DNA of 63,334 nucleotides, counting the filler, from Stramenopiles sp. TOSAG23-6 (lineage: Eukaryota): assembly GCA_900128565.1 (NCBI GenBank). It is 33 parts of 33 records of this genome, joined end to end, with 100 filler letters (N's around TTAATTAATTAA, not from the genome) between each part and the next. Parts side by side here need not be neighbours in the genome. Positions count along the whole stretch, not along the records: positions 48,121 to 49,937 come from LT638566.1; positions 50,038 to 51,853 come from LT638567.1; 31 more parts are not named here. One strand, written 5' to 3'. This document shows, piece by piece, positions 17,488-50,090 of the stretch. The notes beneath the pieces are model-generated. The model did no database searches, was not told where the DNA came from, and saw only the letters and a program-made list of their open reading frames with translations. How positions within the stretch are numbered: the first letter of the stretch is position 1; each line of letters starts with the position of its first letter. Position numbers and translations under genes: made by a program.

Positions 17488-18453
17488 ATATTTCGAAAAG
17501 TAATATTTCGTACAGTTGATGCAATGCTTCCAATTGTCAAACCGACACCACTCGCATTAACATTTTCAATGACAACATTTGTTGTATCATCTTTGACACA
17601 AAAAGTATCATATACTTTGAAGAAATATTTTACATTTGGTATTTTCTTAGTACAGAAAAAAAGAAAAATTAAAAAAATATTAGGGTTAGGGGTCCTAGTT
17701 CTAGGGTTAGGGCTACTAACATACATCCTGATTCCATACATTACAGTGATGAATCCAAATATCATTTCCAGTCACATCAAATCCATCAGTATTAAACGCA
17801 GTAAGGTCAATAATAGTATGTTTTGTGCGAGATATTCTCCATGCTTCAATACTACAATAACGGATTTCTAGTCCATCAACTCCTTCAAATAGTGTAGTCC
17901 AGTATGGCGGATCTTTAAAATTTACATTTTCGATTAGAGTGTCGTTTGAATCTGTCATTCTCAAAAGTCTTGGTCTATCCTCATGCCGAATTAAATAACC
18001 AATACCTGGAATACCCCACCAATGTTGTCCAAGGCCGTCGATTAAACCTTTACCTGAACTTGTCATGGTGAAGTTTTTAAATTGAGTAAAGTGCATAAAT
18101 TCTAAAACTCCACCGTTGGAATGGTCTCTAGGCCACGTTTTGATATCTTTAGGGAGTATTAATGTACCATCCAGTTGTAGTGTTACAGAGTCTAACTTTT
18201 CTGCATGAATTCCTCCCATAACGTGAAATGTTTTGTTAGGTACAAGCAGTGTATCGCCTGGCTGTAACGTAGGTAATGTATCGTTAAATATTCGACCATT
18301 TCTCCAACAGGTGGATAGACTAGAATCATCGGGAATAAGACCACCGGATTCTTCAATATTAATAATTCTTGAAGAAATAACAATACATTTGGATGCAATC
18401 ACTAATGCACATAGGCATACGAGTAATCGAGTATAACGACAAAATAATGTCAT
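17488..18453 (-). CDS. Polygalacturonase, glycoside hydrolase family 28 (exons 18453-17725, 17609-17488)
   Basis: Signal peptide, FNTDGFD, NQD|DTFCVK (catalytic DD split by GT..AT intron 17724-17610), G.TIGS. Confidence 0.92.
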
Positions 18454-18882
18454 TTTAGATGAAAACACGTGATTCTTTTTAAATCACGTGAATTTAAAAA
18501 AAAAGGCACAAACGAAAAAAACGAAAACGAATGTCATTGACTGATTTTGTAACATTTTGTAATATATTGATTGATTTGTGTTTACTTTTTTTTGAATCAT
18601 AAATAATTTGATATGAGATCGAATATTAGTATTCGATTTCGTGTAATCATGAGATCATTTTCTGCTATTTACTTTGAAAAAATATTGAGTATTTATGAAA
18701 TTAATGAAATTAAACTTGTTTATGTTATTTAATACTTTTAGTACTTGTAGAAAAGGCAAATTAAGTTAACTACAAGCTTAGAGTTACTAGTAGGGTACCA
18801 CCGGTAAGGATATATGTCTCTGTTATTTTTTTCGTACCAAATTTCGTACCTAACAAAAACTTTTTTTTAGTACGTACCATTT

Positions 18883-21355: not shown

Positions 21356-21528
21356 CACTCTTTGTCTCTTTCTTAATTGTTCTTTAAGATTTTTCTCCGT
21401 TGCTTTGAAATTGGATGGAACGATACTATATGGATCTAATAAAATTCTTGAATGTTTTCCTTTTTCAGCCTGTATTTTACATTGTTTTTTGAAATTTGAA
21501 ATATTTTGTTAGGTATCAAATTTCGTAC

Positions 21529-21582
<54 letters not shown>

Positions 21583-21816: not shown

Positions 21817-22937
21817 AAATTTGAAATTCAATTATGAAAACGTACCAAAGTTTTCGTGTAGAGAAGATTCAAATTCTACTCCTATTGATTTATCTAGAGG
21901 TATAATTTCATTTTCGCCTATAATATAGGGTGCATATTTAGCATCTCTTTCTTCCATCTCACGTTCCCATTTATCTCGTTTCAGTTGCAAACATTGTGAA
22001 AAAATATTTAAAAAAATTCAAAATTTGTTACGTACAAAATTTACTATAAAAAAAAAAAAAAAAAAATTTAAAAAAAAAAAATTGAAATGAAAACGTACAA
22101 ATCAACCGCAGATTGATATAATCGATTATACACCTTACCATTCGATTTTCGTTTAACTTTTGATAATGTATTCATTGTCATAGATACATCAACACCATCA
22201 TCTAAATGTGCTACATTTTGTTTATTTTCATCATTAGGGTTAGGGTTAGGGTTAGGGTTCAGCGTGTTTTCATCATAGGTTTCTTCATTATTATAATTCT
22301 CATGCACAATAGACATTGCCTTTTTTAATTTTTTATATACACTGTTGAAGAAATCTAATGTTGCACAAAAGTCTTTGTGGTCTATTTTGATCAATTTTGA
22401 ATGTGATAAAGTATTTGAAGTATTTGTAGTAGTACTTGTAGTAGGATTTGTAGTAGGATTTGTAGAAGGATTTGTAGTAGGATTTGTAGAAGGATTTGTA
22501 GTCGGATGAAATCGTTTCATAAGTAACTCTAAATCGTGCTTTGTCAGACCTTTTTTTCTATTACTACTAAACAAACCTAAACGTCGTAGACCATGTAATT
22601 AAAGGACAATATTTCATTTGTTTTTTTGTTAGGTACAAAATTTACTACGAAAATAACATTTGAGTTTTTTTTTTTTTGAAACGGACATTTTGAAATTCAT
22701 TTTGATCGATAAATGTATTGTAGAAAAATATTTCAAAATGTACTAAAAAAAAAAATTTGTTAGGTACAAATTTTTTTTACCAAAAAAAAAAAAGATCAAA
22801 TTTGAAAATAATTAAAACATACATCCATCGCCATTTCGATCAAATGCTGCGAAAGCTTTTGTTATATCTTTCATTTTTGTACCAAATAGTTGACGTTTTT
22901 TTTGAATCGCTTCACATAGTTTCATAATTACAATGCA
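21356..22937 (-). CDS. Multi-exon EF-hand protein
   Basis: Splicing 22822-22713 and 22686-22593 rebuilds AFAAFDRNGDGFIDQNEFQNGLRRLG. Junctions below 21850 are less certain. Confidence 0.8.
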
Positions 22938-24883: not shown

Positions 24884-25118
24884 GTATTTTTTTTTTTCTA
24901 ATTTCGAATTTATTTTTTGTGTTACGTATGAAATTTTGTACCTAACAAATTTTAGTTTTTTTTTTGAAATATTTTTCCAAAATANNNNNNNNNNNNNNNN
25001 NNNNNNNNNNNNNNNNNNNNNNNNNNNNTTAATTAATTAANNNNNNNNNNNNNNNNNNNNNNNNNNNNNNNNNNNNNNNNNNNNAAAATTTTTTTTTTTT
25101 TAAAAATTTAAAAAAATT

Positions 25119-25166
<48 letters not shown>

Positions 25167-25237
25167 GTAGAATATTTTGTACCTAACAATTTTTTTTTTT
25201 AGAAAAAAAAAAATATATATATTTTCCCAAAATACAG

Positions 25238-25548
25238 GTTATAATAAAAAACAAAATTCGGTACTTGTCGCAAACCTGTCGTGCAATAAAAACATTATAA
25301 AAAGAGCTATTATGTCGAGTATCGATACATATAATGACAAAAAAAAACATTTTCTAGCAAATGATTGTGATAATCCTAGTGGCAACTTTAATGAGCTACA
25401 TAAAAAAAATAATAAAAATGTTCAGAATTTTGTACAATTTTATGAAAATAATTCTAAAAATAATTGTGAAAAAGTATTTTCTTCATATGGAGATAATAAA
25501 CTTTGGTCCTTTCTGGAAAAAGATTTTGTGAAATATAAAGGAGACTAA
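25238..25548 (+). CDS. Last exon of an unknown protein
   Basis: Follows a family intron ending AAAATACAG. Confidence 0.5.
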
Positions 25549-25825
25549 GAAATTCTAAGAATTCTTGAACTCCCTGGAGTGGAATAGTTTTTGTAAAATA
25601 AAAAAAATCATAAAAATCATGAATTTTGAAAATTTATTTTCCTATATTTCGATTTATTTTGATGGATTTTTGATGTATTTTTGATGTTTTTTTTCAAAAA
25701 AAATGTAAGATTCCTACTACAATAATATCTGATTCCAAAATCTGAAAAATCTAATACTTGTAAAGTAGCTACAGTAATTGATGATTTAATCCTTTAGAAG
25801 ATATAATACCTAATACGTATCAAAG

Positions 25826-26853
25826 ATGTTTATTGATTTGCTCTGTGTAATGATTATATTTTTGCTCTTTTTGGTAAATGAAACGCGAGTCGATGCGAAG
25901 TCAAAACCTCAAGTGATCAATGTAGGTAAATTTCCTGAGACAATAGCCTTTACTGAGGAAATCATTCTCTATGAAGGCTTCAATATATCCATAAATTCTA
26001 ATGCAAATAGTTATTTTTTTAATCAAACACAAAGAGAACGAGTTGATGTGTATTTCCCGAATGGTGTACGCAACGTAAACCCTGATAGTAATCCTGAGTT
26101 TTCTTTTATATCCATGGAAAATTTTGATGGTGCACACATAGACGAGTCAAGTGAAGAGTCAATTGAAAAGGATACTTTAGATACCTTGAAATCTAGTGAT
26201 GTCCTAGTTGGTGTAAATGGTCTTCCAATTCTACCCATATCTATAAATCAAGCATTAAACACAGGAACTCTTTTAGAATCAAGGCTTCGAGGAGATGGCA
26301 ATTCTAATAATACTTTTCTCTTCCCAGTATTTGAAAGTGATTCTGGCAATTTTGATGGAAAAAGAGAAAAGGGTAAAGAAAGTACACTAGAATCTCGGGG
26401 TATAGTTTGGACTGGTGATGGTAGTAATATTTTATCAAAAAATAATGAAATTGAACAAGAATGTAATACTAATGATGATTCATGTCCAACCACTTTTGAA
26501 AAATTAGAGAATAGTCAAATACATTTAATGACAAAGAAGGGGAACAGAATTATTTATAATGGATCTGGTGGAAAGCTTTCTGGGTTCTTCAAGATGACAT
26601 GTATGTTGTATTTTTTTTTTTACAAAAAAATCGAATTTATTTTTCATACGAAATTTCGTACCTAACGAATTTTTTTTTGAAATATTTTTCCAAAATACAT
26701 ATATACCTCTACACGATAGAACATCTAAAGAAAATCTTAAATTGGGTTTTCAGCCAAATGATAAAAAACGTTTTTTCAATGTTATAAAATCAAGACAAGA
26801 AGAAAAAAAACAAAATTATATGTTTCGTTCGGAAAATCGAATTAAAAGTTTAT
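25826..26853 (+). CDS. Secreted or membrane protein of unknown function (exons 25826-26600, 26701-26853)
   Basis: Signal peptide; GT..AT intron 26601-26700 keeps the frame open to the next donor. Confidence 0.65.
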
Positions 26854-27005
26854 GTACGTTTTCATCATGAATTTATTAATTTATTATTTTTTTGGTACGA
26901 AATTTNNNNNNNNNNNNNNNNNNNNNNNNNNNNNNNNNNNNNNNNNNNNTTAATTAATTAANNNNNNNNNNNNNNNNNNNNNNNNNNNNNNNNNNNNNNN
27001 NNNNN

Positions 27006-27039
27006 AAAATTTTTTTTTTTTTAAAAATTTAAAAAAATT

Positions 27040-27087
<48 letters not shown>

Positions 27088-28826
27088 GTAGAATATTTTG
27101 TACCTAACAATTTTTTTTTTTAGAAAAAAAAAAATATATATATTTTCCCAAAATACAGGTTATAATAAAAAACAAAATTCGGTACTTGTCGCAAACCTGT
27201 CGTGCAATAAAAACATTATAAAAAGAGCTATTATGTCGAGTATCGATACATATAATGACAAAAAAAAACATTTTCTAGCAAATGATTGTGATAATCCTAG
27301 TGGCAACTTTAATGAGCTACATAAAAAAAATAATAAAAATGTTCAGAATTTTGTACAATTTTATGAAAATAATTCTAAAAATAATTGTGAAAAAGTATTT
27401 TCTTCATATGGAGATAATAAACTTTGGTCCTTTCTGGAAAAAGATTTTGTGAAATATAAAGGAGACTAAGAAATTCTAAGAATTCTTGAACTCCCTGGAG
27501 TGGAATAGTTTTTGTAAAATAAAAAAAATCATAAAAATCATGAATTTTGAAAATTTATTTTCCTATATTTCGATTTATTTTGATGGATTTTTGATGTATT
27601 TTTGATGTTTTTTTTCAAAAAAAATGTAAGATTCCTACTACAATAATATCTGATTCCAAAATCTGAAAAATCTAATACTTGTAAAGTAGCTACAGTAATT
27701 GATGATTTAATCCTTTAGAAGATATAATACCTAATACGTATCAAAGATGTTTATTGATTTGCTCTGTGTAATGATTATATTTTTGCTCTTTTTGGTAAAT
27801 GAAACGCGAGTCGATGCGAAGTCAAAACCTCAAGTGATCAATGTAGGTAAATTTCCTGAGACAATAGCCTTTACTGAGGAAATCATTCTCTATGAAGGCT
27901 TCAATATATCCATAAATTCTAATGCAAATAGTTATTTTTTTAATCAAACACAAAGAGAACGAGTTGATGTGTATTTCCCGAATGGTGTACGCAACGTAAA
28001 CCCTGATAGTAATCCTGAGTTTTCTTTTATATCCATGGAAAATTTTGATGGTGCACACATAGACGAGTCAAGTGAAGAGTCAATTGAAAAGGATACTTTA
28101 GATACCTTGAAATCTAGTGATGTCCTAGTTGGTGTAAATGGTCTTCCAATTCTACCCATATCTATAAATCAAGCATTAAACACAGGAACTCTTTTAGAAT
28201 CAAGGCTTCGAGGAGATGGCAATTCTAATAATACTTTTCTCTTCCCAGTATTTGAAAGTGATTCTGGCAATTTTGATGGAAAAAGAGAAAAGGGTAAAGA
28301 AAGTACACTAGAATCTCGGGGTATAGTTTGGACTGGTGATGGTAGTAATATTTTATCAAAAAATAATGAAATTGAACAAGAATGTAATACTAATGATGAT
28401 TCATGTCCAACCACTTTTGAAAAATTAGAGAATAGTCAAATACATTTAATGACAAAGAAGGGGAACAGAATTATTTATAATGGATCTGGTGGAAAGCTTT
28501 CTGGGTTCTTCAAGATGACATGTATGTTGTATTTTTTTTTTTACAAAAAAATCGAATTTATTTTTCATACGAAATTTCGTACCTAACGAATTTTTTTTTG
28601 AAATATTTTTCCAAAATACATATATACCTCTACACGATAGAACATCTAAAGAAAATCTTAAATTGGGTTTTCAGCCAAATGATAAAAAACGTTTTTTCAA
28701 TGTTATAAAATCAAGACAAGAAGAAAAAAAACAAAATTATATGTTTCGTTCGGAAAATCGAATTAAAAGTTTATGTACGTTTTCATCATGAATTTATTAA
28801 TTTATTATTTTTTTGGTACGAAATTT
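27006..28826. repeat. Exact duplicate of contig 25085-26905
   Basis: Identical ORFs at offset 1921. Confidence 0.97.
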
Positions 28827-30847: not shown

Positions 30848-31766
30848 ACATCCAGAATACTTCAATGTTGTTTTTAAAAGCAGCAAATAAAATGTACCAA
30901 TAAACTTTGGCGACTTCCTCAGACATTGCTTTGAAGTCTTGTGCAGATGCTGGTATCGAGAATCCTCTGTTCCCCGACCACTCTCCCTGCATCCCAAGAT
31001 TCGTTCGTATACTGTTGAAACCAGGCGGCTTCCGAAATGGAGGTAAGAAGTTTTTAGGAAGCCGAGAGACATCGTTATTTAATCCTGTACGCTTCAAAAC
31101 CTCGCGGTATAAGTCTAGGTTTGCACTAATCATCAGTTTAACATTTTTGTGACTCTCACAAAAATTATCAAAGGCCTGTTTTGCTTTGCGGGAATAACTA
31201 CCAGGTAAAGCCTTGCCGTCTATGGCATTGTAAGAAATAACTGGCCAAAAGTTCTTACTTAATTTACTTGCGTAATAATTAGCTATAATATCATCGATGC
31301 CATTGAGAAGAGGATCGGTGTAAGCCATAACGTTGTTAAAAGCAGGATTCCGAGCATTACTCATTAATTTCAACAAATCACGCTCCCAATCTTTATTTTC
31401 GTTGAATTTATAGTGATGATAACCATTACGATAAATATTTGAATGTGAATCCACTTTTACCAAACTATTATTTGAATAATATTGAAACGCTTCCCCCTCA
31501 TTTGGGAACGCTTCCTTAAAACTTGCCCCGTGAACCCCGATTGTCCGCGGAGCATACATTTGATATTTGATCCATGTATCATTATCATCATCATCTTTTT
31601 TGCCAGGGTTATTTTCTGGTAAGTATAATGCAGAGAGCAATACAGTTACCATATCCATAAGTCTTATTACCGAGTTTGTTTCAGTGTTTTTTGTCGTGGC
31701 ATCATCGAAATTTTGGGAATTACCTAAGGAGAAGGTATACCAATCTATCTTATGAAGTGATGGCAT
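30848..31766 (-). CDS. Unknown protein, paralog of 31856-32654
   Basis: Long ORF sharing KI.W.T.SLG, GY.HY.F, Y.DPL...IDDI.A and SYNA.DG with the opposite-strand ORF. Confidence 0.65.
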
Positions 31767-31855
31767 AAGTTGGGTTACAACAAGGCAAAGAAACAGAAGA
31801 GATAATTAAGAAAAGAGAAATAGAAAGAAAAGCAGAATTGGAAAGAGCACATGGC

Positions 31856-32654
31856 ATGAAGAAATTTATGGACTCCACTTTAAAATCGCATGGTAAATTA
31901 AAAATGCGATGGCCAAGTGAAAGTGTAGATCGTTTGTACCGCAAAAGCGCAGTAGGCAAAAGACGATATTTNNNNNNNNNNNNNNNNNNNNNNNNNNNNN
32001 NNNNNNNNNNNNATAAGAAAAATGAAAGAAGCAGAAAAGAAAGCAGAAATTGACAGAGATGCAGTAGAGGTGTTGCATGCGAATGCCTTAGGAGAAAGAC
32101 TTAGGCCAATGCTCGAAAAGATAAATTGGGAGACATATTCTCTAGGTCATGTAAAAAGTTTCACTGCTGGTTTGAAGAATTTCACGTTCGATAAGAAAAC
32201 CCATCTTTCGGATATGGTGAATGTATTTCTTTTCTCCCAGTATTTCAAAGACGAAAATGCATGGGTTCCTCATAAGTTCGAAGGTATGAAGAGTAAAATA
32301 GCCGAAGGAAAATTTTCCTCCGATCACACGAGATTTGAAAAGGAGGAAAATATTTTATACTTTTCGAACGAGGATATAGAACCTTACACGGGTAAAGGTT
32401 ATAAACACTATGTATTTAAAACTTCTCATCCAGGCTGGGAAGAACGTTTAGAATTATTGGCAAGTGGAAATTTCCCGAAAGTTTTTCATAATGCTGTAAT
32501 TTATGATGATCCGCTTGTCAGAGATATTGATGATATTGCGGCAGCTGATGTTCTTAGACATTTAAGTTATGACTGTAAACATATTTTGTCTTATAATGCA
32601 GTCGATGGGCAACCTACAGTTTTTGCACCGGATCCGGATAACGATTTAACATAA
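31856..32654 (+). CDS. Unknown protein, paralog of 30848-31766 (internal N gap)
   Basis: Same shared motifs as its neighbour. Confidence 0.6.
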
Positions 32655-32768
32655 AAATAAAAAGTCTTNNNNNNNNNNNNNNNNNNNNNNNNNNNNNNNN
32701 NNNNNNNNNNNNTTAATTAATTAANNNNNNNNNNNNNNNNNNNNNNNNNNNNNNNNNNNNNNNNNNNN

Positions 32769-33201
32769 TGATTGGCTACACTCTAAACTGAAAAATGATG
32801 ACATGCAACTTTCAGAAAGTTCAGATATATCCCCACAACATTCTTCAAAATCCACAAAAAACACAAAGTCACCAAAAGGAATAAAAACGACAAAAGTTTT
32901 GCGACGTAGTAAAAGAAAGACGTCACCTCCTCGAAGTACACGAAATACTCTTTCTGAGTCGAGTGCCGTAAGTACGTATTCTCGGAGGAGAAATTTTGAA
33001 GAGCCTTTGTACCAGAAGCTTATGAATGAAGTAATTTCACTTGATGACAAAGGAATGTCAAGCCAACTTCTTCTTTTTTATGAAGAGCAGAAGAAAATTA
33101 CACAGAGTGGTCGCGATGGAGTGAACAAATTATTACAAGCATTAGGATTAGGTACACAGCGCAGTGAACTACAGAAGCTCCGAAATATGAGAAATCTTTA
33201 A
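32769..33201 (+). CDS. C-terminal fragment of an unknown protein
   Basis: Open frame from the contig start to a stop at 33201. Confidence 0.5.
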
Positions 33202-33702
33202 TATTTATTGATTATACAATTTTATACAGTTTTGAAAACTTTGTGTATCAAATGATGGAAATGTTGGAAATTAATTGAAAAAGGAGATTTATTTTTGTAA
33301 AATAATAATAAATACATTTGCAATACGTAGTACTCACTCAAGAGAAACTCCAGAGATTTTTAAATAATTAATCATAAACGTAATAAATCTTTTTCACCAC
33401 GGACCCAGAGTTTGTGGAGGCTATTACAAACCCTAACCCTACGTACACTCCCTAATACCTACCTAGCCTAGGTTCAATTATGGTTCGCATTGAAAAATCT
33501 TCGAAAAAGATCAAAAAGATCAAAAAGATAAAGATAGGTATATAAATCTTCGTCGAATACTCCATGAGCGGTTGAATATTACGACACATATTATTGTACA
33601 TTACATTTGTAAGAAGGGAAGAAGTTCACTTCGTTATAGGAATATTATTGAAAAAGTGTCTATGTTGTGTCGTTATTACCGCGAAACGTTTGATTAAAAT
33701 TA

Positions 33703-34362
33703 ATGTCAAAACATAAACTTGACCGCGTTGACGAACGTTTTTTATCGTCTACGTGTTCACCACTTTTACAAGACTGGTGCATTCGGCTAGTATTCAAATT
33801 TATACGACCTTTATGGCCTGTGAAAGGGTATTGTTTTTTTGTGTCTCGATGCTGGGATTTAGCACTTAAAGATTCAAAGTGTATACAATTGACGTTGAAT
33901 GAAAAAGATAAGGTGGGTCCTCAACCAGTTTCTCGCCACGGAAGTATACNNNNNNNNNNNNNNNNNNNNNNNNNNNNNNNNNNNNNNNNNNNNNNNNNNN
34001 NNNNNNNNNNNNNNNNNNNNNNNNNNNNNNNNNNNNNNNNNNNNNNNNNNNNNNNNNNNNNNNNNNNNNNNNNNNNNNNNNNNNNNNNNNNNNNNNNNNN
34101 NNNNNNNNNNNNNNNNNNNNNATATTTTGATGCAGCGTTGTCCTAAGTTAAAGGAAGTTTGCATAGATTTTGCTCAGGGCGTCAGGGTGAATCGCAAGGG
34201 ATTACCTGTAGAATGTAACATTCATTCTATAGAACTTCGAGGGTGCACAAATTTAAAAAAAATAGGATGTTGCAGCTTGTTAGATACTTGTAAAAAGACT
34301 CTCCGACATCTTGTCATAGCAGGTACAAGACACGTTGAAATCACCAGCATATTTCGCTCTCT
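33703..34362 (+). CDS. F-box/LRR-like protein (gapped)
   Basis: F-box-like L..W...VFKF...VSRCW, then RCPKLKEV and LRGCTNL LRR-like units. Confidence 0.55.
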
Positions 34363-34689
34363 CGTTGTCCTAAGTTAAAGGAAGTTTGCATAGATTTTGC
34401 TCAGGGCGTCAGGGTGAATCGCAAGGGATTACCTGTAGAATGTAACATTCATTCTATAGAACTTCGAGGGTGCACAAATTTAAAAAAAATAGGATGTTGC
34501 AGCTTGTTAGATACTTGTAAAAAGACTCTCCGACATCTTGTCATAGCAGGTACAAGACACGTTGAAATCACCAGCATATTTCGCTCTCTNNNNNNNNNNN
34601 NNNNNNNNNNNNNNNNNNNNNNNNNNNNNNNNNTTAATTAATTAANNNNNNNNNNNNNNNNNNNNNNNNNNNNNNNNNNNNNNNNNNNN

Positions 34690-35605
34690 CACTATTAGAT
34701 GATGATGAACTTGATTTTCGTTTTTTTCCACTACTACTACTATTTGATACTTCAGGTGGTNCATTCTCATCAACAACTGTATCCTTAAATGATTCCAATG
34801 AAGCAGATAGTATTTTCTCCTCTTCTTTAAATGTTTTGGTCAACTTTTTAAAACCATTTAAACGATCAGTTTGTTCCTTTTGTGCAAAAACAATAAATTG
34901 ATATTCGTATTCAGCATCTTTAATAGCACTCTTTATCTTTTCAATATTTTGTTTTGCAGCTTCAAGTTGTTTCTCTGCTTCTGGTAACTGTTTCTTTGCA
35001 TTTTTAACTGCATCTTCTGCTATCTTTAGTTTATTAATTTTTTCTTCTTCTTCATCTTCAATCTTGGCTTCTAAAACAACAACAGATTCTTCGACGACTT
35101 TTCTCATTTGTTTTATTTTAGAAACTTCTTGAAAAATGTTATTATTCTTTTCTTTACATAAAATAGATAATGTATCCAACGCAGATTCGACTTCTTTTGT
35201 AAATACTTGTTTATGCATAAACACAGGTCGCAGCATATCCAAACTTGACTTTTGAAGGATGCACTCTTCAGATGTTGTGATCAACTCAATCATTTTGGTC
35301 ATGGCGTCAATAACATCTTTTGCTTCTTTAGCCTGAATGCATTTCAACAACAAGATATCCAAATTGTTCTTTTTTTTTGCTTGTTTTTCACTCCATGCAA
35401 TACTTTGTGATTTACAGAGAAAGTTCGACACAAGATTTGTATGAGCTAACACTTCGTTTGTTAAAGGCGATGTATTTTTTGTACGAAAGTGTTGCGTGAT
35501 TGCTGCTCGTTCATACGTGTGACCATCGGCCGCCATCACTGGATCTTTAAATAATTCACATGTTATTGGACACAGTAAATCATGTGGTATATCATCCTGT
35601 GACAT
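34690..35605 (-). CDS. U-box domain protein with coiled coil
   Basis: PHDLLCPITCELFKDPVMAADGHTYERAAI...SPLTN..L....L.SN. Confidence 0.92.
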
Positions 35606-35863
35606 TGCCTCGAAATGACTATGAGTATATAATTATTCAATCAAGAGAGAGAGAGAAATATATTATACTATATTGAACATCCCCGAAAAGTGTCTCGAAA
35701 AGTTGATGTTTTTGGAAAAATTTGATGATGAAAAACATCGGTCGGTCAGAAAAAAAAACCAAAAAAAGCGAAGTTCGAGTTCGAATAATTACGATTGTGA
35801 ATAATTTAAGCATATTAGATTCTGTATTTCTCAAAGTGTGATTATTAATAATTACGCAGAACC

Positions 35864-36340
35864 ATGTTTTGTCTACGTTCTAGAAACCTTCCACGCACAT
35901 GGTTTCAGTATTCTTACTTTAGTAGTGGATCGAAAACACCAATTTCAGCTTTCGATGATCTTGTAAGCGGCGGTACTCTTCGTACTGATGAAGCTCAGCG
36001 TGGTGTAATGAAGCGACTCTCTAAAATATCTGACAATGTCGTAGACTACGATACACGTTGGCAAGCTCATACAAACCGCCTTAAGAAAGTGAATTCCACC
36101 CCAGCTACTTTCTTGTCTGATATAAAAAAATCTCAAGAAGATCTTGAAACATTAACAACAACAATCAAAGAGAATACATCACAGAACACAAAAGGTAGAA
36201 TAAAGAATGATTCACTTTCTAAACTTAATAGTCGATTGAATCAACTAGAAAAATTACATACAGAATTTACATCGTTACTCTCAAAAACACCTCGAGGTTT
36301 ATATTTGTACGGTACTCCCGGTACTGGTAAGAGTTTGTGT
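35864..36340 (+). CDS. AFG1/ZapE-like ATPase, first exon
   Basis: Mitochondrial-like presequence, L..DEAQ, PRGLYLYGTPGTGKS. Confidence 0.85.
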
Positions 36341-36372
36341 GTATGTGTTTCATTTCAAAATTTCAAAATTTT

Positions 36373-36414
<42 letters not shown>

Positions 36415-36666
36415 TTTTTCCCTAAAAATTTTTTTTTTTTTTTTTTTTAATTTAAAAAAAAAAAAAAAATATTTTTTCACAAGATATGAATCCGATGCAA
36501 TATCAATTGNNNNNNNNNNNNNNNNNNNNNNNNNNNNNNNNNNNNNNNNNNNNTTAATTAATTAANNNNNNNNNNNNNNNNNNNNNNNNNNNNNNNNNNN
36601 NNNNNNNNNTAGGTACAAAATTTCGTATGAAAANAAATAAATTTGAAATTCATGATGAAAACGTGC

Positions 36667-40349: not shown

Positions 40350-40811
40350 NNNNNNNNNNNNNNNNNNNNNNNNNNNNNNNNNNNNNNNNNNNNTTAATTA
40401 ATTAANNNNNNNNNNNNNNNNNNNNNNNNNNNNNNNNNNNNNNNNNNNNTTTTTTTTTAATACGAAATTTCTTACCTAACCAAACCAAACCAAACAAACT
40501 TTTTTTTTTTTTTTTTTTTTTTTTTGAATCATTACAAATATTTAATGTTCATACATTTACCAACTGTGAACGACAATGAAAATATTTCTTCACAAAACAT
40601 GCATCATCTGTAAAAGTAACCAGTACTGTTTTTACTCCTATAACACAAATTTCTGATGAACAAAAACATATTTTAAAAAATGCTGCTTTGGAGTTGAGTG
40701 GTGTATGTTTTATTTTTTTTTTAAATTTTGAAATTGAATTTTTTTTTCGTAGGAAATTTTGTACCTAACAATTTTTTTAGAATTTTTTTTAAATATTTTT
40801 CCAAAATACGT

Positions 40812-41705
40812 AAAGGAATAAATCGAAATAATAATCTTCAAAAAAAGCGTGAAATTACAAATGTTGGTACAAAAAAAACTAACCCTAACCCTAGTACTAC
40901 TCTTCAAAAGAATATGGTTGGTACAAAAAAATGTACTACTAATTCTGACACGTGTCATACTGATATCCAATCAAAAAAAAGCAGTGGAAAAACACAATTT
41001 AAACCCCCATCAATAATAGTATCTACTCCTTCCAATATAATGACTGAGAGTACTGAAAACCCTAACCCTAAGAAAGTAAAAATAATTGAAAACCCTAACC
41101 CTAAGAAAGTAAAAATAATTGAAAAAAAGACAAAACAAAATAATCAAAATAATCAAAATGTAACTGTATTGGACAAACCTTTGTGTAATAATACACCTAA
41201 CCCTAACCCTAAAGACGCTACAGACAAAACGATAACACACGAAATACAGGAAAATATAAAATCTAAACCATCGAAAACAACGAAAACAACAAAAAAAATA
41301 TCAAAAGCAAAAATGGCAAATATGGAGAACATCATGGAACAACAAAACCCTAACCCTACGATAAAACACGAAATACATGAGTTACAAAACTGTGAAGATT
41401 CAGTCAAACCTGTCATTCAAAAATCAGTTGTTGTTTTAGAAACATCAACAAAAAATCTAAAAAATTTAAAAAATTCACAACAAATGAAAATTTGTACTAA
41501 AATTGATACAACTGATGGTATGGATGAAAATAGTACTATTTTGGTACCCGGTAACATTGTGTCAAAAAAACGAAATTTTCCCCAAAATACACAAAATATT
41601 TTGTCTGTACGAAAAAAACAAAAAGTTGCTCAAAAAGTTGCTCAAAAATTTGATAATAATAATAGTGAGTCAACAACAATTCTTTGTAATCTTACAAATA
41701 TTTAG
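40812..41705 (+). CDS. Last exon of a K/N/T-rich low-complexity protein
   Basis: In frame with the upstream exon through GT..GT intron 40703-40811; contains several NPNP inserts. Confidence 0.65.
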   Translation, partial: KGINRNNNLQKKREITNVGTKKTNPNPSTTLQKNMVGTKKCTTNSDTCHTDIQSKKSSGKTQFKPPSIIVSTPSNIMTESTENPNPKKVKIIENPNPKKVKIIEKKTKQNNQNNQNVTVLDKPLCNNTPNPNPKDATDKTITHEIQENIKSKPSKTTKTTKKISKAKMANMENIMEQQNPNPTIKHEIHELQNCEDSVKPVIQKSVVVLETSTKNLKNLKNSQQMKICTKIDTTDGMDENSTILVPGNIVSKKRNFPQNTQNILSVRKKQKVAQKVAQKFDNNNSESTTILCNLTNI

Positions 41706-42367
41706 TTGATGTTATTATTGAAATCAAATTTATTATTGAAATCAAAAAATCAAAAATTAGTTTCTTTCTTTTTTTTAGAAAAGTTTACATGAAAATCTTT
41801 AGGTACAAAATTTCGTATGAAAAAAAAAATCATTTTTTTTTCAAAACATTAGAAAAGTTTAAATGAACAAAATAATAATTGAAACATTTTGCATTCTCAT
41901 TATTTAAATATTATTTGAATATGATATGTACATGTATAATATACTATATACAAACTAAGTTTTAAATACAAAAATTAAAAAAGTTTAAAAAATAAAACAA
42001 ATACAAGTAATTTTTTTTTGTTGTTGTAAAAATTTAAATACAAAAATTAAAAAAGTTTAAAAAATAAAACAAATACAATTAATTTTTAAAGTGACATTTT
42101 TTGTTGTAAAAATTTAATTTCACTAAAAACATTGTTGTAGTATTTTTAGTTTATATTTTGATTTCAAAAACAAGTTTTTTTTATTTTTATTGTATAAAAA
42201 TATTTTGAATATTTTTTTTGTATGTTTTGTATTTTTTGTATTTTTTGTATTTTTTGTATTTTTTGTANNNNNNNNNNNNNNNNNNNNNNNNNNNNNNNNN
42301 NNNNNNNNNNNTTAATTAATTAANNNNNNNNNNNNNNNNNNNNNNNNNNNNNNNNNNNNNNNNNNNN

Positions 42368-44185
42368 TTTTTTTTTAATACGAAATTTCTTACCTAACCA
42401 AACCAAACCAAACAAACTTTTTTTTTTTTTTTTTTTTTTTTTTGAATCATTACAAATATTTAATGTTCATACATTTACCAACTGTGAACGACAATGAAAA
42501 TATTTCTTCACAAAACATGCATCATCTGTAAAAGTAACCAGTACTGTTTTTACTCCTATAACACAAATTTCTGATGAACAAAAACATATTTTAAAAAATG
42601 CTGCTTTGGAGTTGAGTGGTGTATGTTTTATTTTTTTTTTAAATTTTGAAATTGAATTTTTTTTTCGTAGGAAATTTTGTACCTAACAATTTTTTTAGAA
42701 TTTTTTTTAAATATTTTTCCAAAATACGTAAAGGAATAAATCGAAATAATAATCTTCAAAAAAAGCGTGAAATTACAAATGTTGGTACAAAAAAAACTAA
42801 CCCTAACCCTAGTACTACTCTTCAAAAGAATATGGTTGGTACAAAAAAATGTACTACTAATTCTGACACGTGTCATACTGATATCCAATCAAAAAAAAGC
42901 AGTGGAAAAACACAATTTAAACCCCCATCAATAATAGTATCTACTCCTTCCAATATAATGACTGAGAGTACTGAAAACCCTAACCCTAAGAAAGTAAAAA
43001 TAATTGAAAACCCTAACCCTAAGAAAGTAAAAATAATTGAAAAAAAGACAAAACAAAATAATCAAAATAATCAAAATGTAACTGTATTGGACAAACCTTT
43101 GTGTAATAATACACCTAACCCTAACCCTAAAGACGCTACAGACAAAACGATAACACACGAAATACAGGAAAATATAAAATCTAAACCATCGAAAACAACG
43201 AAAACAACAAAAAAAATATCAAAAGCAAAAATGGCAAATATGGAGAACATCATGGAACAACAAAACCCTAACCCTACGATAAAACACGAAATACATGAGT
43301 TACAAAACTGTGAAGATTCAGTCAAACCTGTCATTCAAAAATCAGTTGTTGTTTTAGAAACATCAACAAAAAATCTAAAAAATTTAAAAAATTCACAACA
43401 AATGAAAATTTGTACTAAAATTGATACAACTGATGGTATGGATGAAAATAGTACTATTTTGGTACCCGGTAACATTGTGTCAAAAAAACGAAATTTTCCC
43501 CAAAATACACAAAATATTTTGTCTGTACGAAAAAAACAAAAAGTTGCTCAAAAAGTTGCTCAAAAATTTGATAATAATAATAGTGAGTCAACAACAATTC
43601 TTTGTAATCTTACAAATATTTAGTTGATGTTATTATTGAAATCAAATTTATTATTGAAATCAAAAAATCAAAAATTAGTTTCTTTCTTTTTTTTAGAAAA
43701 GTTTACATGAAAATCTTTAGGTACAAAATTTCGTATGAAAAAAAAAATCATTTTTTTTTCAAAACATTAGAAAAGTTTAAATGAACAAAATAATAATTGA
43801 AACATTTTGCATTCTCATTATTTAAATATTATTTGAATATGATATGTACATGTATAATATACTATATACAAACTAAGTTTTAAATACAAAAATTAAAAAA
43901 GTTTAAAAAATAAAACAAATACAAGTAATTTTTTTTTGTTGTTGTAAAAATTTAAATACAAAAATTAAAAAAGTTTAAAAAATAAAACAAATACAATTAA
44001 TTTTTAAAGTGACATTTTTTGTTGTAAAAATTTAATTTCACTAAAAACATTGTTGTAGTATTTTTAGTTTATATTTTGATTTCAAAAACAAGTTTTTTTT
44101 ATTTTTATTGTATAAAAATATTTTGAATATTTTTTTTGTATGTTTTGTATTTTTTGTATTTTTTGTATTTTTTGTATTTTTTGTA
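42368..44185. repeat. Exact duplicate of contig 40450-42267
   Basis: Identical ORFs at offset 1918. Confidence 0.97.
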
Positions 44186-47925: not shown

Positions 47926-48533
47926 GTATGTTTTTTTTTTTTTTTCTATGAATTTATTTTTCATACGAAATTTTGTACCTAACAATTTTTTTAGATTTTT
48001 TTGAAATATTTTTCCAAAATNNNNNNNNNNNNNNNNNNNNNNNNNNNNNNNNNNNNNNNNNNNNTTAATTAATTAANNNNNNNNNNNNNNNNNNNNNNNN
48101 NNNNNNNNNNNNNNNNNNNNTGAATTTCTAATTTAATTTTTTTTTCATACGAAATTTCGTACCTAACGATTTTTTTTGAAATATTTTTCCAAAATACATG
48201 TGGAGTGCTGCAAAGCGGGAGAGGGAAAGAAAACGATTACCAGATATGGAAGACAAAGTTGCTAAAGCAGTAAGACGAGCATCGGTTGTTCCGCCGACCC
48301 GTAAATTAAAATAAAATTTTATAGCTAAAAAACTTGTAAAAAAAAAATACTCGAATTTTAATAACATAAACTAAAACATTACTAAATTATGACTTGTCCC
48401 GAAGTCTCGATATAATACAAAATTTTAAAAAAATCAAATTTTCGCTCCTCTGATGATCGATCGATGATGTTCTCTTTCGTGTCGAAAAACTATAAATCAA
48501 TTTTAGTGTATGTACATTTTAAAAAAAAGAAGA

Positions 48534-49872
48534 ATGAGCCCCATAAAAACTGGCGATGATGTAAATATTACTGCCCTTCAATCAGAAATTCGCAGTGCAA
48601 TAATGAATAAAAAAGTGAACGCTTGTCCTATTGCAATTCGCCTTGCCTGGCACGCAAGTGGAACCTATAACAAACATGATAAAACAGGAGGTAGCAATGG
48701 TGCTCGGATGAGGTTTCACCCAGAAAAAGACGATGAAGCTAATGCAGGTTTATCAATAACACGTGATTTATTGCAGCGTATAAAACGAAATCACCCTGAA
48801 ATTTCTAATGCAGATTTATGGGCTGTGGCGGGAGCATCCGCGTGTGAATTTGCTGGTGGACCGAAAATTAGAGTTCAACTTGGTAGAACAGATGATTGCA
48901 ACGGTGAAAAGTCTCCTCCCCCTGGTCGCCTACCAGATGCAAGTAAGGGTGCTCAGCACTTACGTGATGTTTTTTATCGTATGGGATTTAATGATCAAGA
49001 GATTGTTGCTCTTAGTGGTGCACACACTCTTGGTCGTTGTCATTTAACTAGAAGTGGTTTCGATGGACCTTGTACGTTTTCATATTAATTTCAAATTTAT
49101 TTTTTTTTGTACCAAATTTTGTACCTAACACATTTTTTTTTTCAAATATTTTTCACAAGACTTGGACACCGAATCCTTTAAAGTTTGATAATCAGTATTT
49201 CAAGTTGCTCATGGGTTTAGATTGGACACCAAGGCAATGGGAAGGAAATTTCCAATACGCTGATCCTAGTGGTCAATTAATGATGTTACCTACCGACATG
49301 TATGTTAACCCTAACCCTAACAAAAGAAATAATCATGATTTTTTTTACTATAAAAATGCATGTAACCCTAACAAATTTCAAATTTTTGAAATATTTTTTA
49401 CAATGCATGGCATTAAAAACAGATTCTAAATTCAGAGTTTGGGCTGAAAAATATGCAAAAGATGAAAAACTATTTTTTAAAGATTTTGCAAAAGCTTATG
49501 CAAAACTAATCAGTCTTGGTTGTAAACGAAAACAAGAACCTACAACAGGTTTATCAAGGGAAGAGAGAGTGACATACGAAGCAAGCATGCAATTACAGGA
49601 AGCAGCTATGTACGTTTCCATGATACATTTCAAATATTTTTTTTTTTTTTTCAATTTTTTTTTTCAATTTTTTTTTAAAAATTTTTCGTACGAAATTCCG
49701 TACCTAACATTTTTTTTTCTAAAATATTTTTTCACAATATATGCATGGGTCTTTAGCTCTTGTCAAGCGACTTGCTGAAGGCATACGTGAAGATGGAGTA
49801 CCCACAACAAAATTTGATGGTCAAGGTGATATTAGTTCAGTAGAAAGTGCTTCTGGTCGAACTGCACTACAT
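48534..49872 (+). CDS. Class I heme peroxidase (ascorbate/cytochrome c peroxidase) with C-terminal ankyrin repeats (exons 48534-49071, 49164-49299, 49409-49609, 49743-49872)
   Basis: [43 protein letters not shown], then EAA|MHGS and GRTALH. Confidence 0.93.
49072..49163 (+). other. Non-canonical GT..TT family intron
   Basis: Removal restores GP-W-TPNP; the only nearby AG (CACAAG) gives a frameshift and stop. Confidence 0.9.
49300..49408 (+). other. Non-canonical GT..AT family intron
   Basis: Removal restores LPTD-M-AL; there is no AG after the branch motif and the next exonic AG gives a stop. Confidence 0.9.
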
Positions 49873-50090
49873 GTACGTTTTCATCATGAATTTATTAATT
49901 TATTATTTTTTTGGTACGAAATTTTGTACCTAAACAANNNNNNNNNNNNNNNNNNNNNNNNNNNNNNNNNNNNNNNNNNNNTTAATTAATTAANNNNNNN
50001 NNNNNNNNNNNNNNNNNNNNNNNNNNNNNNNNNNNNNTTGTACCTAACAAATTTAAGTTTTTTTTTTTGAAATATTTTTCCAAAATACAT

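What the first reader, a model, noticed from the sequence alone, without database searches (positions are those of the whole stretch)
48534..49937. Dominant intron class ends in AT/TT/GT rather than AG: a non-canonical splicing system
Seen: roughly 70-80 copies of one ~90-170 nt intron design across the window: GTAYGTTTT...CGTACGAAATTTYGTACCTAAC...GAAATATTTTTC(C/A)(A/C)AA(A)TACAT. It is always oriented with the host gene. Conserved motifs fix the excised length. Examples are peroxidase GP|WT (49072-49163, GT..TT), PTD|MAL (49300-49408, GT..AT) and AA|MHG (49610-49742); GH28 QD|D (17724-17610); WHIM T|W (55278-55373, no AG in the intron); carnitine acyltransferase GRT|VT and AH|VAR; and three consecutive MFS introns. 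In the decisive cases nearby AGs give frameshifts or stops. Established: U2-type spliceosomes almost always need a 3' YAG, and abundant non-canonical introns are known in only a few lineages (euglenids, Fritillaria, Amoebophrya). Inference: this organism splices GT..AT as its main class. I do not recall this being described, but I cannot search the literature.
Basis: partly seen in the sequence, partly recalled or inferred. Interest (0 to 1): 0.95.

Follow-up and report, generated by a model that had tools for sequence, protein, structure and literature searches.

The report
Transposon-like introns that lack AG ends
An uncultured, AT-rich marine protist carries many copies of a ~100-base mobile-element-like intron that starts like an ordinary intron (GTAYGT, then a CTAAC branch motif) but ends in ...ACAT instead of AG, so its genes make sense only if it cuts introns at an unusual 3' end; no RNA proof was obtained.

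Summary
The window is 33 separate ~1.8-kb contigs joined by spacers, three of them exact duplicates. One ~100-nt element family gives 70 nhmmer hits, 63 without the duplicates. Consensus: GTAYGTTTT...CGTACGAAATTTTGTACCTAAC...GAAATATTTTTCCAAAATACAT.

Homologous proteins fix the junctions of three peroxidase introns exactly: FDGP|WT, LPTD|MALK, EAA|MHGSL. The GH28 NQD|D motif and an EF-hand loop do the same. None of these introns can end in AG.

Over 38 3' junctions the last intron base is T in 38 and never G. The 5' end is GTAYGT. The last 2 nt repeat the 2 nt before GT in 22 of 27 full copies, and the rare variants (GT/GT, TT/TT) covary. That looks like a target-site duplication, so GT..AT, TG..CA and AT..AC are the same excision.

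Copies next to ORFs lie on the gene's strand (35 same, 1 opposite and spurious).

Best reading: an introner/MITE-like family removed at RNA level with a non-AG 3' site. No junction-spanning RNA was found, no snRNAs could be searched, and the lineage is unknown. Comparable transposon-derived non-canonical introns are known in Amoebophrya, Fritillaria and euglenozoans. This is a new variant of a known kind.

The parts
48534..49071 (+). Peroxidase exon 1 (ATG at 48534; ends ...FDGP plus 1 nt)
   Evidence: Pfam PF00141, E 2e-41. tblastn to L001-L003, 69-73% identity.
49072..49163 (+). Element/intron 1, 92 nt: GTACGTTTTC...GTACCTAAC...CACAAGACTT. The TT before GT is repeated as the last TT.
   Evidence: Junction FDGP|WT fixed by homologues. 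nhmmer 46.1 bits. X4 DNA contig spans the 5' border.
49164..49299 (+). Peroxidase exon 2 ([10 protein letters not shown]...LPTD)
   Evidence: tblastn.
49300..49408 (+). Element/intron 2, 109 nt. A diverged copy whose 5' half holds AACCCTAACCCTAAC. Ends ...CAATGCAT, with AT/AT direct repeat.
   Evidence: Junction LPTD|MALK. nhmmer 17.2 bits for the 3' half.
49409..49609 (+). Peroxidase exon 3
   Evidence: tblastn.
49610..49742 (+). Element/intron 3, 133 nt: GTACGTTTCC...CGTACGAAATTCCGTACCTAAC...CACAATATAT. No AG anywhere inside.
   Evidence: Junction EAA|MHGSL. AG count 0.
49743..49872 (+). Peroxidase exon 4 (MHGSL...SGRTALH, start of the ankyrin part)
   Evidence: tblastn to L002/L003.
49873..49937 (+). 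5' part of a fourth element (GTACGTTTTCAT...), cut by the contig end
   Evidence: nhmmer 26.6 bits, model positions 3-71.
48130..48199 (+). 3' part of an element at the contig start, upstream of the peroxidase ATG (...TCCAAAATACAT|g)
   Evidence: nhmmer 52 bits. End read.
17610..17724 (-). Element/intron in the GH28 polygalacturonase gene, splitting NQD|D. GT..AT, with CCCTAA-like repeats inside.
   Evidence: Sequence. Pfam PF00295 on the upstream exon.
22713..22822 (-). Element/intron inside an EF-hand loop (DRNGDG|F|IDQNE)
   Evidence: nhmmer 46.5 bits.
55278..55373 (+). Element/intron in the WSD/WHIM-type gene (T|W). No AG inside. An 8-nt direct repeat TAATACAT.
   Evidence: Pfam WSD profile 5-31 before it (E 0.12) and 36-66 after it.
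52761..52869 (+). Element/intron in the carnitine acyltransferase gene (GRT|VT). CT before GT, AT at the end.
   Evidence: Pfam PF00755 on flanking exons. Weak CPT2 match.
40703..40811 (+). Copy ending ...ATACGT whose upstream exon ends GT (covarying direct repeat). Duplicate at 42621-42729.
21989..22098 (-). Copy ending ...AATGTTT whose upstream exon ends TT (covarying direct repeat)
10790..11094 (-). Two consecutive elements/introns (11094-10986, 10892-10790) in an MFS-like gene. A third lies at 11236-11142.
   Evidence: nhmmer 63.6, 43.2 and 27.1 bits. MFS_1 E 2.7e-4, below the Pfam cut-off.
18824..18865 (+). Truncated copy in non-coding DNA between two minus-strand genes, antisense to both
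   Evidence: nhmmer 26 bits. Context read.

Best explanation
These are copies of a short non-autonomous mobile element (an 'introner', MITE-like) that has spread through the genes of an AT-rich marine protist. They are tolerated because they are cut out of the pre-mRNA.

Each copy carries a yeast-like 5' splice site (GTAYGT) and a CTAAC branch motif. A T-rich tract and a conserved 3' block ...GAAATATTTTTCCAAAATAC follow, 32-49 nt in all from branch motif to end. Insertion duplicated a 2-bp target, preferentially (C)AT(G). The excised RNA is the element plus one copy of that duplication, which restores the original coding sequence.

With the first cut at GT, as the conserved GTAYGT implies, the second cut falls two bases past the element's ...ATAC, after whatever the duplicated bases are (AT, rarely GT or TT). 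The 3' site is therefore not an AG. It seems to be set by position or context rather than by the terminal dinucleotide.

Shown: the family, its anatomy, the exact excised lengths in five homology- or motif-fixed cases, the direct repeat and its covariation, the strand bias, and presence in independent environmental DNA.

Inferred: removal at RNA level, use of the major spliceosome, and DNA transposition as the spreading mechanism.
For: 1. Family and abundance. 63 unique nhmmer hits. Median 81% identity to the consensus over 17 copies. Two subfamilies have linked ends: GTACGTTTTC..TTCACAATACAT and GTATGTTTTA..TCCAAAATACAT. In a seawater DNA run, element bins reach summed depth ~109,000 against 7.5 on the exons. 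This is only a rough sign of thousands of copies.

2. The elements must be removed. Only 4 of 27 full copies have a length divisible by 3. The peroxidase, GH28 and EF-hand motifs are restored only by exact excision.

3. The ends are not AG. The last base is T in 38 of 38. 9 of 27 introns hold no AG at all. The AGs that sit shortly after the branch motif in several copies, or just before the end in others, would add stops or frameshifts in the peroxidase, GH28 and 54462 cases (sequence read).

4. Canonical first-step signals. G37 T36 A35 Y37 G35 T37 of 37 at the 5' end. GTACCTAAC is present 49 times.

5. Target-site-duplication signature. Exon end equals intron end for 1 nt in 26 of 27 and for 2 nt in 22 of 27 full copies. 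All 3 copies whose intron -2 is not A carry the same base at exon -2 (0 of 19 when the exon has A, 3 of 8 otherwise; hand-computed Fisher p = 56/2925 = 0.019). Flanks are symmetric: C at exon -3 in 16 of 37, G at exon2 +1 in 22 of 38, against 15-16% base frequency.

6. RNA level rather than DNA level. 35 copies are co-oriented with adjacent ORFs against 1 spurious opposite. The only antisense copies seen are truncated and sit in non-coding DNA. The element:exon depth ratio is ~14,600 in DNA (X4) but ~46-120 in poly(A) RNA (X9) and ~10-17 in cDNA (X12) (a weak measure, as the tool warns).

7. Not an assembly error. The same end recurs in 38 copies. X4 lists no differing letter at the three 3' junctions, and it bridges the exon 1/intron 1 border.
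Against: - No RNA evidence of the spliced form. Read laying on 48121-49937 listed no joint across any of the three introns. Only 15 joints were shown, all repeat-driven, with 221 more not shown. RNA-run contigs that contain unspliced elements do exist.
- No near-identical transcript-derived protein exists in the 5.8-billion-protein collection. The best hits were 74% identity with exon 1 and 58% with exon 3.
- 3 of 20 curated copies do not keep frame at the consensus end. A further intron (starting at 52546) needs a boundary 2 nt upstream of where I first placed its end by likeness to the consensus.
- The terminal inverted repeat is short (ATGTAT/ATACAT). It pairs in the minimum-energy fold of only 11 of 20 copies, and subfamily A breaks it (GTAC versus ATAC).
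- Direct repeats of 7-8 nt (AATACAT) in 3 of 27 copies do not fit a plain 2-bp duplication. They point to sequence-directed insertion or a proto-splice-site preference.
- A non-G last intron base is poorly tolerated by known major spliceosomes (established knowledge, recalled).
- No snRNA or splicing-factor gene could be examined.
Confidence: 0.6

Rival explanations
1. Same elements and same excision, but done by a transformed minor (U12-type) spliceosome. That machinery is known to accept GT-AT, AT-AC, AT-AA and similar ends, and in Physarum it expanded through a transposon-like element flanked by a short direct repeat.
For: GT-AT is a documented, functional, rare U12-type boundary. [quoted passage not shown] ACCTAAC resembles the U12 branch motif CCTTRAC. 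GTATGTTTT differs from GTATCCTTT at two positions. In register -2 the elements read AT...AC in most copies.
Against: The 5' motif has G at +5 and T at +6 (35 and 37 of 37). That is the U1/U6-type GTATGT, not RTATCC. The branch motif lies 32-49 nt from the end, further than the classical U12 spacing as I recall it; the Physarum preprint allows up to about 45. No U11, U12 or U6atac could be searched.
Confidence: 0.1
2. The copies spread not by cut-and-paste DNA transposition but by reverse splicing of the excised intron into transcripts at CAT|G proto-splice sites, followed by reverse transcription and recombination. The exon/intron end similarity would then be a splice-site consensus (CAT| in place of CAG|), not a target duplication. 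Removal is still spliceosomal with a non-AG acceptor.
For: The exon end (C)AT| mirrors the intron end CAT|, just as CAG| mirrors YAG| in ordinary introns. Repeats of 7-8 nt matching the element's own 3' end occur in 3 of 27 copies. The inverted repeat is weak. No transposase or full-length copy was seen in the window.
Against: The GT/GT and TT/TT covariation (3 of 3 non-A cases) is what a duplication predicts and what a fixed consensus does not. Truncated antisense copies lie in non-coding DNA.
Confidence: 0.15
3. Non-spliceosomal RNA excision of the euglenid 'nonconventional intron' type, guided by pairing of the two intron ends and releasing a circle rather than a lariat.
For: The ends can pair (AUGUAU/AUACAU) in the minimum-energy fold of 11 of 20 copies. 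Short direct repeats at the borders and a suspected MITE origin are features of euglenid and hemistasiid non-canonical introns (PMC11282704 and PMC12621601, passages read).
Against: Those introns lack a U1-complementary 5' end. Here GTAYGT and CTAAC are the best-conserved blocks. The stem is only 6 AU-rich pairs and is absent in 9 of 20 folds.
Confidence: 0.07
4. DNA-level elimination: the elements are excised precisely from a somatic genome, as with ciliate IESs bounded by a short repeat, so the expressed genes never contain them.
For: They are short, AT-rich and bounded by a 2-nt direct repeat of which one copy must remain. The repeats vary in length, like pointers.
Against: The strand bias with genes (35:1) has no reason to exist under DNA excision. 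The boundary is AT, not TA. Long ORFs of 500-640 aa are open in the standard code, which argues against TAA/TAG-reassigning ciliates. Bulk environmental DNA holds the filled exon/intron border (X4). Elements do occur in RNA-library contigs.
Confidence: 0.04
5. Nothing is removed: the contigs are pseudogenes, amplification chimeras or mis-assemblies.
For: The assembly is fragmentary (1.8-kb contigs, single Ns, duplicates).
Against: Exons are 69-73% identical to homologues over four exons without stops. The elements sit in at least 19 unrelated contigs. Independent seawater metagenomes hold both gene and element.
Confidence: 0.03

Closest known systems
Introner elements of Amoebophrya (Syndiniales), Farhat et al. 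2021, PMC7789003 (passages read)
   Same: Marine protist. Repeated intron families behave like non-autonomous transposons. Short direct repeats overlap the exon/intron borders and inverted repeats sit at the ends. Borders are non-GT-AG, and the exact cut is ambiguous within the repeat.
   Different: In Amoebophrya no dinucleotide pattern dominates, the direct repeats are 3-5 nt, the inverted repeats are 8-20 nt, and U1 was not found. Here the 5' end is a uniform GTAYGT, the branch motif CTAAC is conserved, the repeat is 2 nt, the inverted repeat is about 6 nt, and the last base is always T.
Canonical introners of Micromonas and Aureococcus and the wider introner survey (PMC12130899, passages read; 10.1101/2022.06.06.494994, listing only)
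   Same: Transposon-derived introns in the thousands, in aquatic protists, co-oriented with genes. Target-site duplications take part in the splice junction.
   Different: Those families splice at accepted boundaries (GT/GC/GA/AT at the 5' end, AG/AC at the 3' end). The survey's curation treated other ends as suspect unless RNA supported them. A ...CAT 3' end is not among the accepted types.
Fritillaria borealis non-canonical introns (Henriet et al. 2019; seen only through the review PMC11282704 and abstracts of PMC13326754)
   Same: MITE-derived introns with non-AG ends (AG-AC, AG-AT), thought to be removed by an adapted U2-type spliceosome.
   Different: In Fritillaria the 5' end is the non-canonical one (AG...). 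Here the 5' end is fully canonical and only the 3' end deviates. Fritillaria is an animal; this window is from a protist-like, gene-dense genome.
Euglenid and hemistasiid/eupelagonemid diplonemid nonconventional introns (PMC6221363, PMC12621601; Gawryluk et al. 2016 not held)
   Same: Borders without GT-AG, end-to-end pairing, border repeats, suspected MITE origin. In marine diplonemid single cells they were predicted without RNA data, as here.
   Different: Those lack U1 complementarity and have G/C-rich inverted ends. Here the ends are AT-rich with GTAYGT. The gene content (NDC80 loop, kinesin-7, ZZ/TAZ fingers) and the dense, strand-switching gene order argue weakly against a diplonemid source. 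That argument is mine.
Rare GT-AT introns of animals and Physarum U12-type introns (PMC1557818; 10.1101/2020.10.12.336362; passages read)
   Same: GT-AT is a boundary pair that real spliceosomes can process. Physarum shows a spliceosomal class expanded by a transposon-like element with a 2-nt direct repeat.
   Different: Those are a handful of introns per genome, or carry U12-type 5' motifs. Here GT-AT would be the rule for a whole high-copy class with U2-type motifs.

Membership tests
U2-type GT-AG spliceosomal intron | 5' GT with U1/U6-complementary extension | tested here: met
   G37 T36 A35 Y37 G35 T37 of 37. One copy has GC (36666).
U2-type GT-AG spliceosomal intron | Branch motif (CTRAY) followed by a pyrimidine-rich tract upstream of the 3' end | tested here: met
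   GTACCTAAC x49. The end lies 32-49 nt downstream in 26 of 27 copies, reached through a T-rich stretch.
U2-type GT-AG spliceosomal intron | 3' terminal AG | tested here: not met
   The last base is T in 38 of 38 and G in 0. In five homology- or motif-fixed cases no AG end is compatible.
U2-type GT-AG spliceosomal intron | Removed from RNA as a lariat by U1/U2/U4/U5/U6 | not testable with these tools
   No junction-spanning RNA, no genome, no snRNA in the window.
U12-type intron | 5' RTATCCTT | tested here: not met
   +5 is G and +6 is T (35 and 37 of 37).
U12-type intron | TCCTTRAC branch motif close to the 3' end | tested here: inconclusive
   ACCTAAC is one base short of the motif and lies 32-49 nt from the end.
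Introner / MITE-like intron-generating transposon | Many similar copies at unrelated gene positions | tested here: met
   63 unique hits on 19 of 30 unique contigs, in unrelated genes: peroxidase, GH28, kinase, carnitine acyltransferase, V-ATPase H, WSD, NDC80-like.
Introner / MITE-like intron-generating transposon | Target-site duplication at the borders | tested here: met
   2-nt repeat in 22 of 27 copies, with covariation in 3 of 3 variant copies. No empty site was available for direct proof.
Introner / MITE-like intron-generating transposon | Terminal inverted repeats | tested here: inconclusive
   ATGTAT...ATACAT (6 nt including the duplicated AT). Paired in 11 of 20 folds. Broken in the GTACG subfamily.
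Introner / MITE-like intron-generating transposon | Autonomous partner encoding a transposase | not testable with these tools
   None in the window. No genome is held.
Euglenid-type nonconventional intron | No U1-complementary 5' end; ends held together by a stable stem | tested here: not met
   GTAYGT is conserved. The stem is weak and absent in 9 of 20 folds.
Ciliate-type internal eliminated sequence | TA (or pointer) borders, no strand preference, removed from somatic DNA | tested here: not met
   AT borders. 35:1 strand bias. The filled junction is present in bulk environmental DNA.

The most novel reading that the evidence does not exclude
An abundant marine protist lineage has a major spliceosome whose acceptor rule for its commonest intron class is ...CAT| rather than ...YAG|. 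The upstream exon end shows a matching shift (CAT|GTATGT instead of CAG|GTRAGT). The 3' cut is placed by distance or context from a canonical branch site, not by the terminal dinucleotide. That relaxed rule allowed a 2-bp-duplicating mobile element to seed on the order of ten thousand introns.
Probability: 0.4. Interest if true: 0.85.

Novelty: new variant of a known kind. Interest (0 to 1): 0.7.

Why it matters
If RNA data confirm the excision, this would be a natural case in which every signal for the first splicing step is textbook (GTAYGT, CTAAC) while the AG acceptor is replaced in a whole high-copy intron class. That isolates how the second step chooses its site. It gives a direct handle on the G(+1)/G(-1) and branch-A/A(-2) contacts and on U2AF35, Slu7, Prp18 and Prp8.

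It would also add a fourth or fifth independent lineage in which transposon invasion and a relaxed splice rule go together.

There is a practical consequence too. Gene finders that insist on GT-AG will mis-annotate nearly every gene of this organism, and introner surveys that rely on such annotations will miss it. The organism is present in several seawater metagenomes.

Tried and rejected
- Whole genome: none held.
- RNA support. Absence of cover there is not evidence.
- The X6 'RNA' run covers the non-coding upstream region as deeply as the exons, so it probably carries DNA. I give it no weight.
- Protein searches for a spliced, near-identical product found none: exon 3 at near lengths gave one 58% hit, and exon 1 at longer lengths gave 74% at best. 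The 80 metagenome loci are other species (at most 73% identity) and hold no element.
- The 22-nt element core is absent from genome contigs and viral contigs.
- Rfam and tRNA scans of the window found nothing.
- Taxon. The kinesin-7 search, a cluster look-up and the Atlas gave no lineage. I considered a marine diplonemid source because of the literature. I think it unlikely, but I could not read Gawryluk et al. 2016.
- Stop-free-frame tests with 45-nt flanks are too permissive to rank AG alternatives. I rely on the homology-fixed cases only.
- PDB and Pfam attempts to pin the carnitine-acyltransferase junctions were too weak to decide the register.
- For the three frame exceptions, an in-frame AT lies within 17 nt of the consensus end in each. 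That is expected by chance in this composition, so it is not counted as support.
- AT..AC was rejected as the preferred register only on the conservation of GTAYGT and a recalled GRTETIRS motif; it is not excluded.
- Supplements of the cited papers were not seen. They may hold intron logos relevant to the comparison.
Full report
WHAT THE WINDOW IS

The 63,334 bases are not one locus. They are 33 contigs of 1833 down to 1810 nt, sorted by length and joined by a 100-nt spacer (N44 TTAATTAATTAA N44). Three neighbouring pairs are 100% identical (N runs). GC is 20-40%. The genes are eukaryotic and read in the standard code: kinesin motor, ZZ/TAZ fingers, AAA_34, U-box; peroxidase, GH28, WSD, protein kinase, carnitine acyltransferase, V-ATPase H; NDC80 loop, SNAP, weak MFS. 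Several 1.8-kb contigs hold two genes on opposite strands.

The peroxidase contig is found almost whole in two small DNA runs of one coded organism. It is found in part in seawater metagenomes and metatranscriptomes of nine studies. The source is therefore an uncultured or little-sampled marine protist. I could not place its lineage.

THE OBSERVATION

The repeat is far beyond chance: GTACCTAAC 49 times against 0.13 expected, and GTAYGTTT 36 against 6.3. Seventeen complete copies align over their whole length. Their majority consensus is GTATGTTTTATTTTTTTTT..AAAAAATTTGAATTTTTTTTTCGTACGAAATTTTGTACCTAACAAATTTTTTTTTTTTTGAAATATTTTTCCAAAATACAT, with median identity 81%. A profile of them finds 70 hits at E<=0.01, which is 63 once the duplicated contigs are removed, on 19 of 30 unique contigs. 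Many contigs begin or end inside a copy, so the assembler broke at the repeat and this tail of short contigs is enriched for it.

Two subfamilies have linked ends: GTACGTTTTC with TTCACAATACAT, and GTATGTTTTA with TCCAAAATACAT. Linked ends are what descent from distinct master copies predicts.

ARE THE BORDERS REALLY NON-AG?

For the peroxidase I fetched homologues from metagenomes. I aligned three intron-free ones (69-73% identical over exon 1) back to the contig. The homologue residues run on without gap or overlap at FDGP|WT, LPTD|MALK and EAA|MHGSL, and a fourth exon ends at SGRTALH before another GTACGT. The removed stretches are therefore exactly 92, 109 and 133 nt.

In GH28 the catalytic NQDD motif is split as NQD|DTFCVKD by 17724-17610. 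The AG five bases before that end would shift the frame. A 12-residue EF-hand loop is restored exactly by removing 22822-22713. In the WSD gene the Pfam profile resumes within two positions across 55278-55373.

A cruder frame test on 20 curated copies gave 12 open at the consensus end with 75-nt flanks. Five more are open on inspection, where the exon is short or the real start is the second GTATGT. Three do not fit: 9211-9331, 23914-24029 and 54462-54563. I could not resolve these.

Only 4 of 27 full copies are multiples of three, and 9 of 27 contain no AG at all.

ANATOMY OF THE BORDERS (37 5' junctions and 38 3' junctions on unique contigs)

- Intron start: G37 T36 A35 (T26/C11) G35 T37 T37.
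- Intron end: ...A A T A C A T, with the last base T in 38 of 38, A at -2 in 35, C at -3 in 30.
- Upstream exon: T at -1 in 36 of 37, A at -2 in 26, C at -3 in 16.
- Downstream exon: starts with G in 22 of 38 and never with C.

The exon end and the intron end are thus the same short word. They are identical for 1 nt in 26 of 27 full copies, 2 nt in 22, 3 nt in 13, 4 nt in 6, and 7-8 nt (AATACAT) in 3.

This has two consequences. First, the cut cannot be placed within the repeat: GT..AT, TG..CA and AT..AC give the same mRNA. The three copies whose intron -2 is not A (40703-40811 G, 49072-49163 T, 22098-21989 T) carry that same base at exon -2. All 19 copies with exon A have intron A. By hand, Fisher p = 56/2925 = 0.019, before counting that the base itself matches each time. 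That is the signature of a 2-bp target-site duplication, with a symmetric target preference C-AT-G.

The intron starting at 52546 adds a possible fourth covarying case (TT/TT), if its end is set by frame and by the Pfam match that begins at MYG. Three diverged copies end in ACAG and were left out of the 38. One sits in a 5' UTR, one lacks its 5' half, and in the third the AG reading does not keep frame with the GT start.

RNA OR DNA?

Of the 63 hits, 35 lie beside stop-free ORFs of at least 90 aa on their own strand only, 1 on the opposite strand only, 6 on both, and 21 on neither. The single opposite ORF is a poly-K/F artefact, and the gene there runs with the element. The only antisense copies I saw are truncated and lie in non-coding DNA (18824-18865 and 41788-41848).

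A transposon should insert both ways. Survival of the sense orientation only, inside coding sequence, is what removal from the transcript predicts and what DNA excision does not.

An independent seawater DNA run carries an error-free contig across the exon 1/intron 1 border. It lists no differing letter at the three 3' borders.

In that DNA run the summed depth on element bins is ~109,000 against 7.5 on the exons. In a poly(A) metatranscriptome the ratio is ~46-120, and in a cDNA run ~10-17. This fits depletion from mature RNA, but the tool warns that such depths are poor measures. One 'RNA' run looks DNA-contaminated.

There is no direct evidence of the spliced form. No listed joint spans an intron. 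No near-identical protein from any transcript assembly exists in the large protein collection. The element core is absent from the other collections I could scan.

MECHANISM

The best-conserved blocks are those a major spliceosome needs for the first step. GTAYGT pairs with U1 and with the U6 ACAGAG box in the yeast manner (established knowledge). A CTAAC branch motif lies 32-49 nt from the end, followed by a T-rich tract.

I therefore favour spliceosomal removal with the 5' cut at GT. The 3' cut then falls two bases past the element's ...ATAC, in the duplicated bases, whatever they are. This suggests a site chosen by distance or context. In several copies an AG sits shortly after the branch motif (sequence read). 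It cannot be the acceptor in the homology-fixed or frame-checked cases.

The ends can form a 6-bp AUGUAU/AUACAU stem, but only 11 of 20 minimum-energy folds show it. I give it little weight.

The rivals are set out with odds in the Rival explanations section:
- a transformed U12-type system, since GT-AT is a known minor-spliceosome boundary;
- spread by reverse splicing into CAT|G proto-splice sites rather than by DNA transposition;
- euglenid-like non-spliceosomal excision;
- DNA elimination;
- artefact.

COMPARISON WITH WHAT IS KNOWN

Transposon-derived introns ('introners') are established (PMC12130899, passages). Abundant non-GT-AG, repeat-bordered, hairpin-ended introns are described in three groups:
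- Amoebophrya (PMC7789003, passages);
- Fritillaria and euglenids (review PMC11282704, passages);
- hemistasiid diplonemids, and by prediction marine diplonemid single cells (PMC12621601, sections 3 and 5 and passages; PMC6221363 and PMC6792441, passages).

Gawryluk et al. 2016 is not held, so I could not compare its intron figures.

This family differs from all of these. It has a canonical, uniform 5' site and branch site, and a uniform non-AG end (T in 38 of 38).

Searches found no description of such a class. I combined 'introner' with non-canonical splicing, target-site duplication, single-cell genomes, marine stramenopiles, MAST-4, Picozoa, choanoflagellates, eupelagonemids and 'GT-AT'. 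The library misses most subscription papers and all supplements.

VERDICT

The sequence observation is confirmed, with three corrections: duplicated contigs, a repeat-enriched sample, and border ambiguity. Excision at non-AG borders is required by the coding sequences and is most likely done on RNA, but it remains unproven, and the phenomenon belongs to a known kind. I rate it a new variant of a known kind, interest 0.7.

Noticed in passing
whole window; spacers at e.g. 1834-1933 and 49938-50037: The window is a chain of 33 contigs (1833 to 1810 nt, sorted by length) joined by N44-TTAATTAATTAA-N44. Three adjacent pairs are exact duplicates (1-1833 = 1934-3766; 25085-26905 = 27006-28826; 40450-42267 = 42368-44185). 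Features that seem to continue across a spacer are unrelated.
   Followed up: yes
49300-49408 (+) and 17610-17724 (-): Two diverged copies carry telomere-like CCCTAA repeats in their 5' halves (AACCCTAACCCTAAC; CCCTAACCCTAGAACTAGGACCCCTAACCCTAA). The family's branch motif ACCTAAC is itself one base from CCCTAAC.
   Followed up: no
18824-18865 (+) and 41788-41848 (-): Truncated element fragments lie in non-coding DNA, antisense to the neighbouring genes. These are the only antisense copies seen.
   Followed up: partly
36666 (-) and about 30632 (+): One copy starts GCACGT (a GC donor). One starts GAACGT, with GT two bases upstream. These are possible donor variants or shifted donors.
   Followed up: no
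25157-25238 (= 27078-27159), 23207-23287, 21498-21539 (-): Three diverged copies end ...ATACAG. One lies just before a start codon (5' UTR). In the coding one, the AG reading does not keep frame with the GT donor.
   Followed up: partly
3867-5699; 55785-63334; also 11597-15355, 19313-21138, 30848-36509: Eleven contigs have no element. Some are GC-richer (up to 0.40) and hold long uninterrupted ORFs of 524-610 aa, mostly without a Pfam family. They may be intron-poor genes or DNA of another organism in the same sample.
   Followed up: no
element centre, e.g. 9265-9285 against 9211-9216: The internal CGTACG/CATACG next to the branch motif can pair with the GTACG/GTATG donor. Several copies have the matching variant (GTATG with CATACG; GTACG with CGTACG), but two do not. 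This could be a donor-to-branch 'zipper' or a remnant of the element's structure.
   Followed up: partly
52546-52676 (+) and elsewhere: Some introns of the family are swollen by homopolymer runs (T30+, A30+). Single Ns and homopolymer uncertainty in this assembly could cause some of the frame exceptions.
   Followed up: no
48229-48506 (run X6): A run labelled RNA covers the non-coding region upstream of the peroxidase as deeply as the exons. It also shows the element at ~5000 times exon depth, so it probably contains genomic DNA.
   Followed up: partly
peroxidase gene 48534-49937: The gene belongs to a widespread ~400-aa peroxidase-ankyrin fusion family of marine protists. Dozens of metatranscriptome, MMETSP and EukProt members are 64-74% identical to it.
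   Followed up: partly
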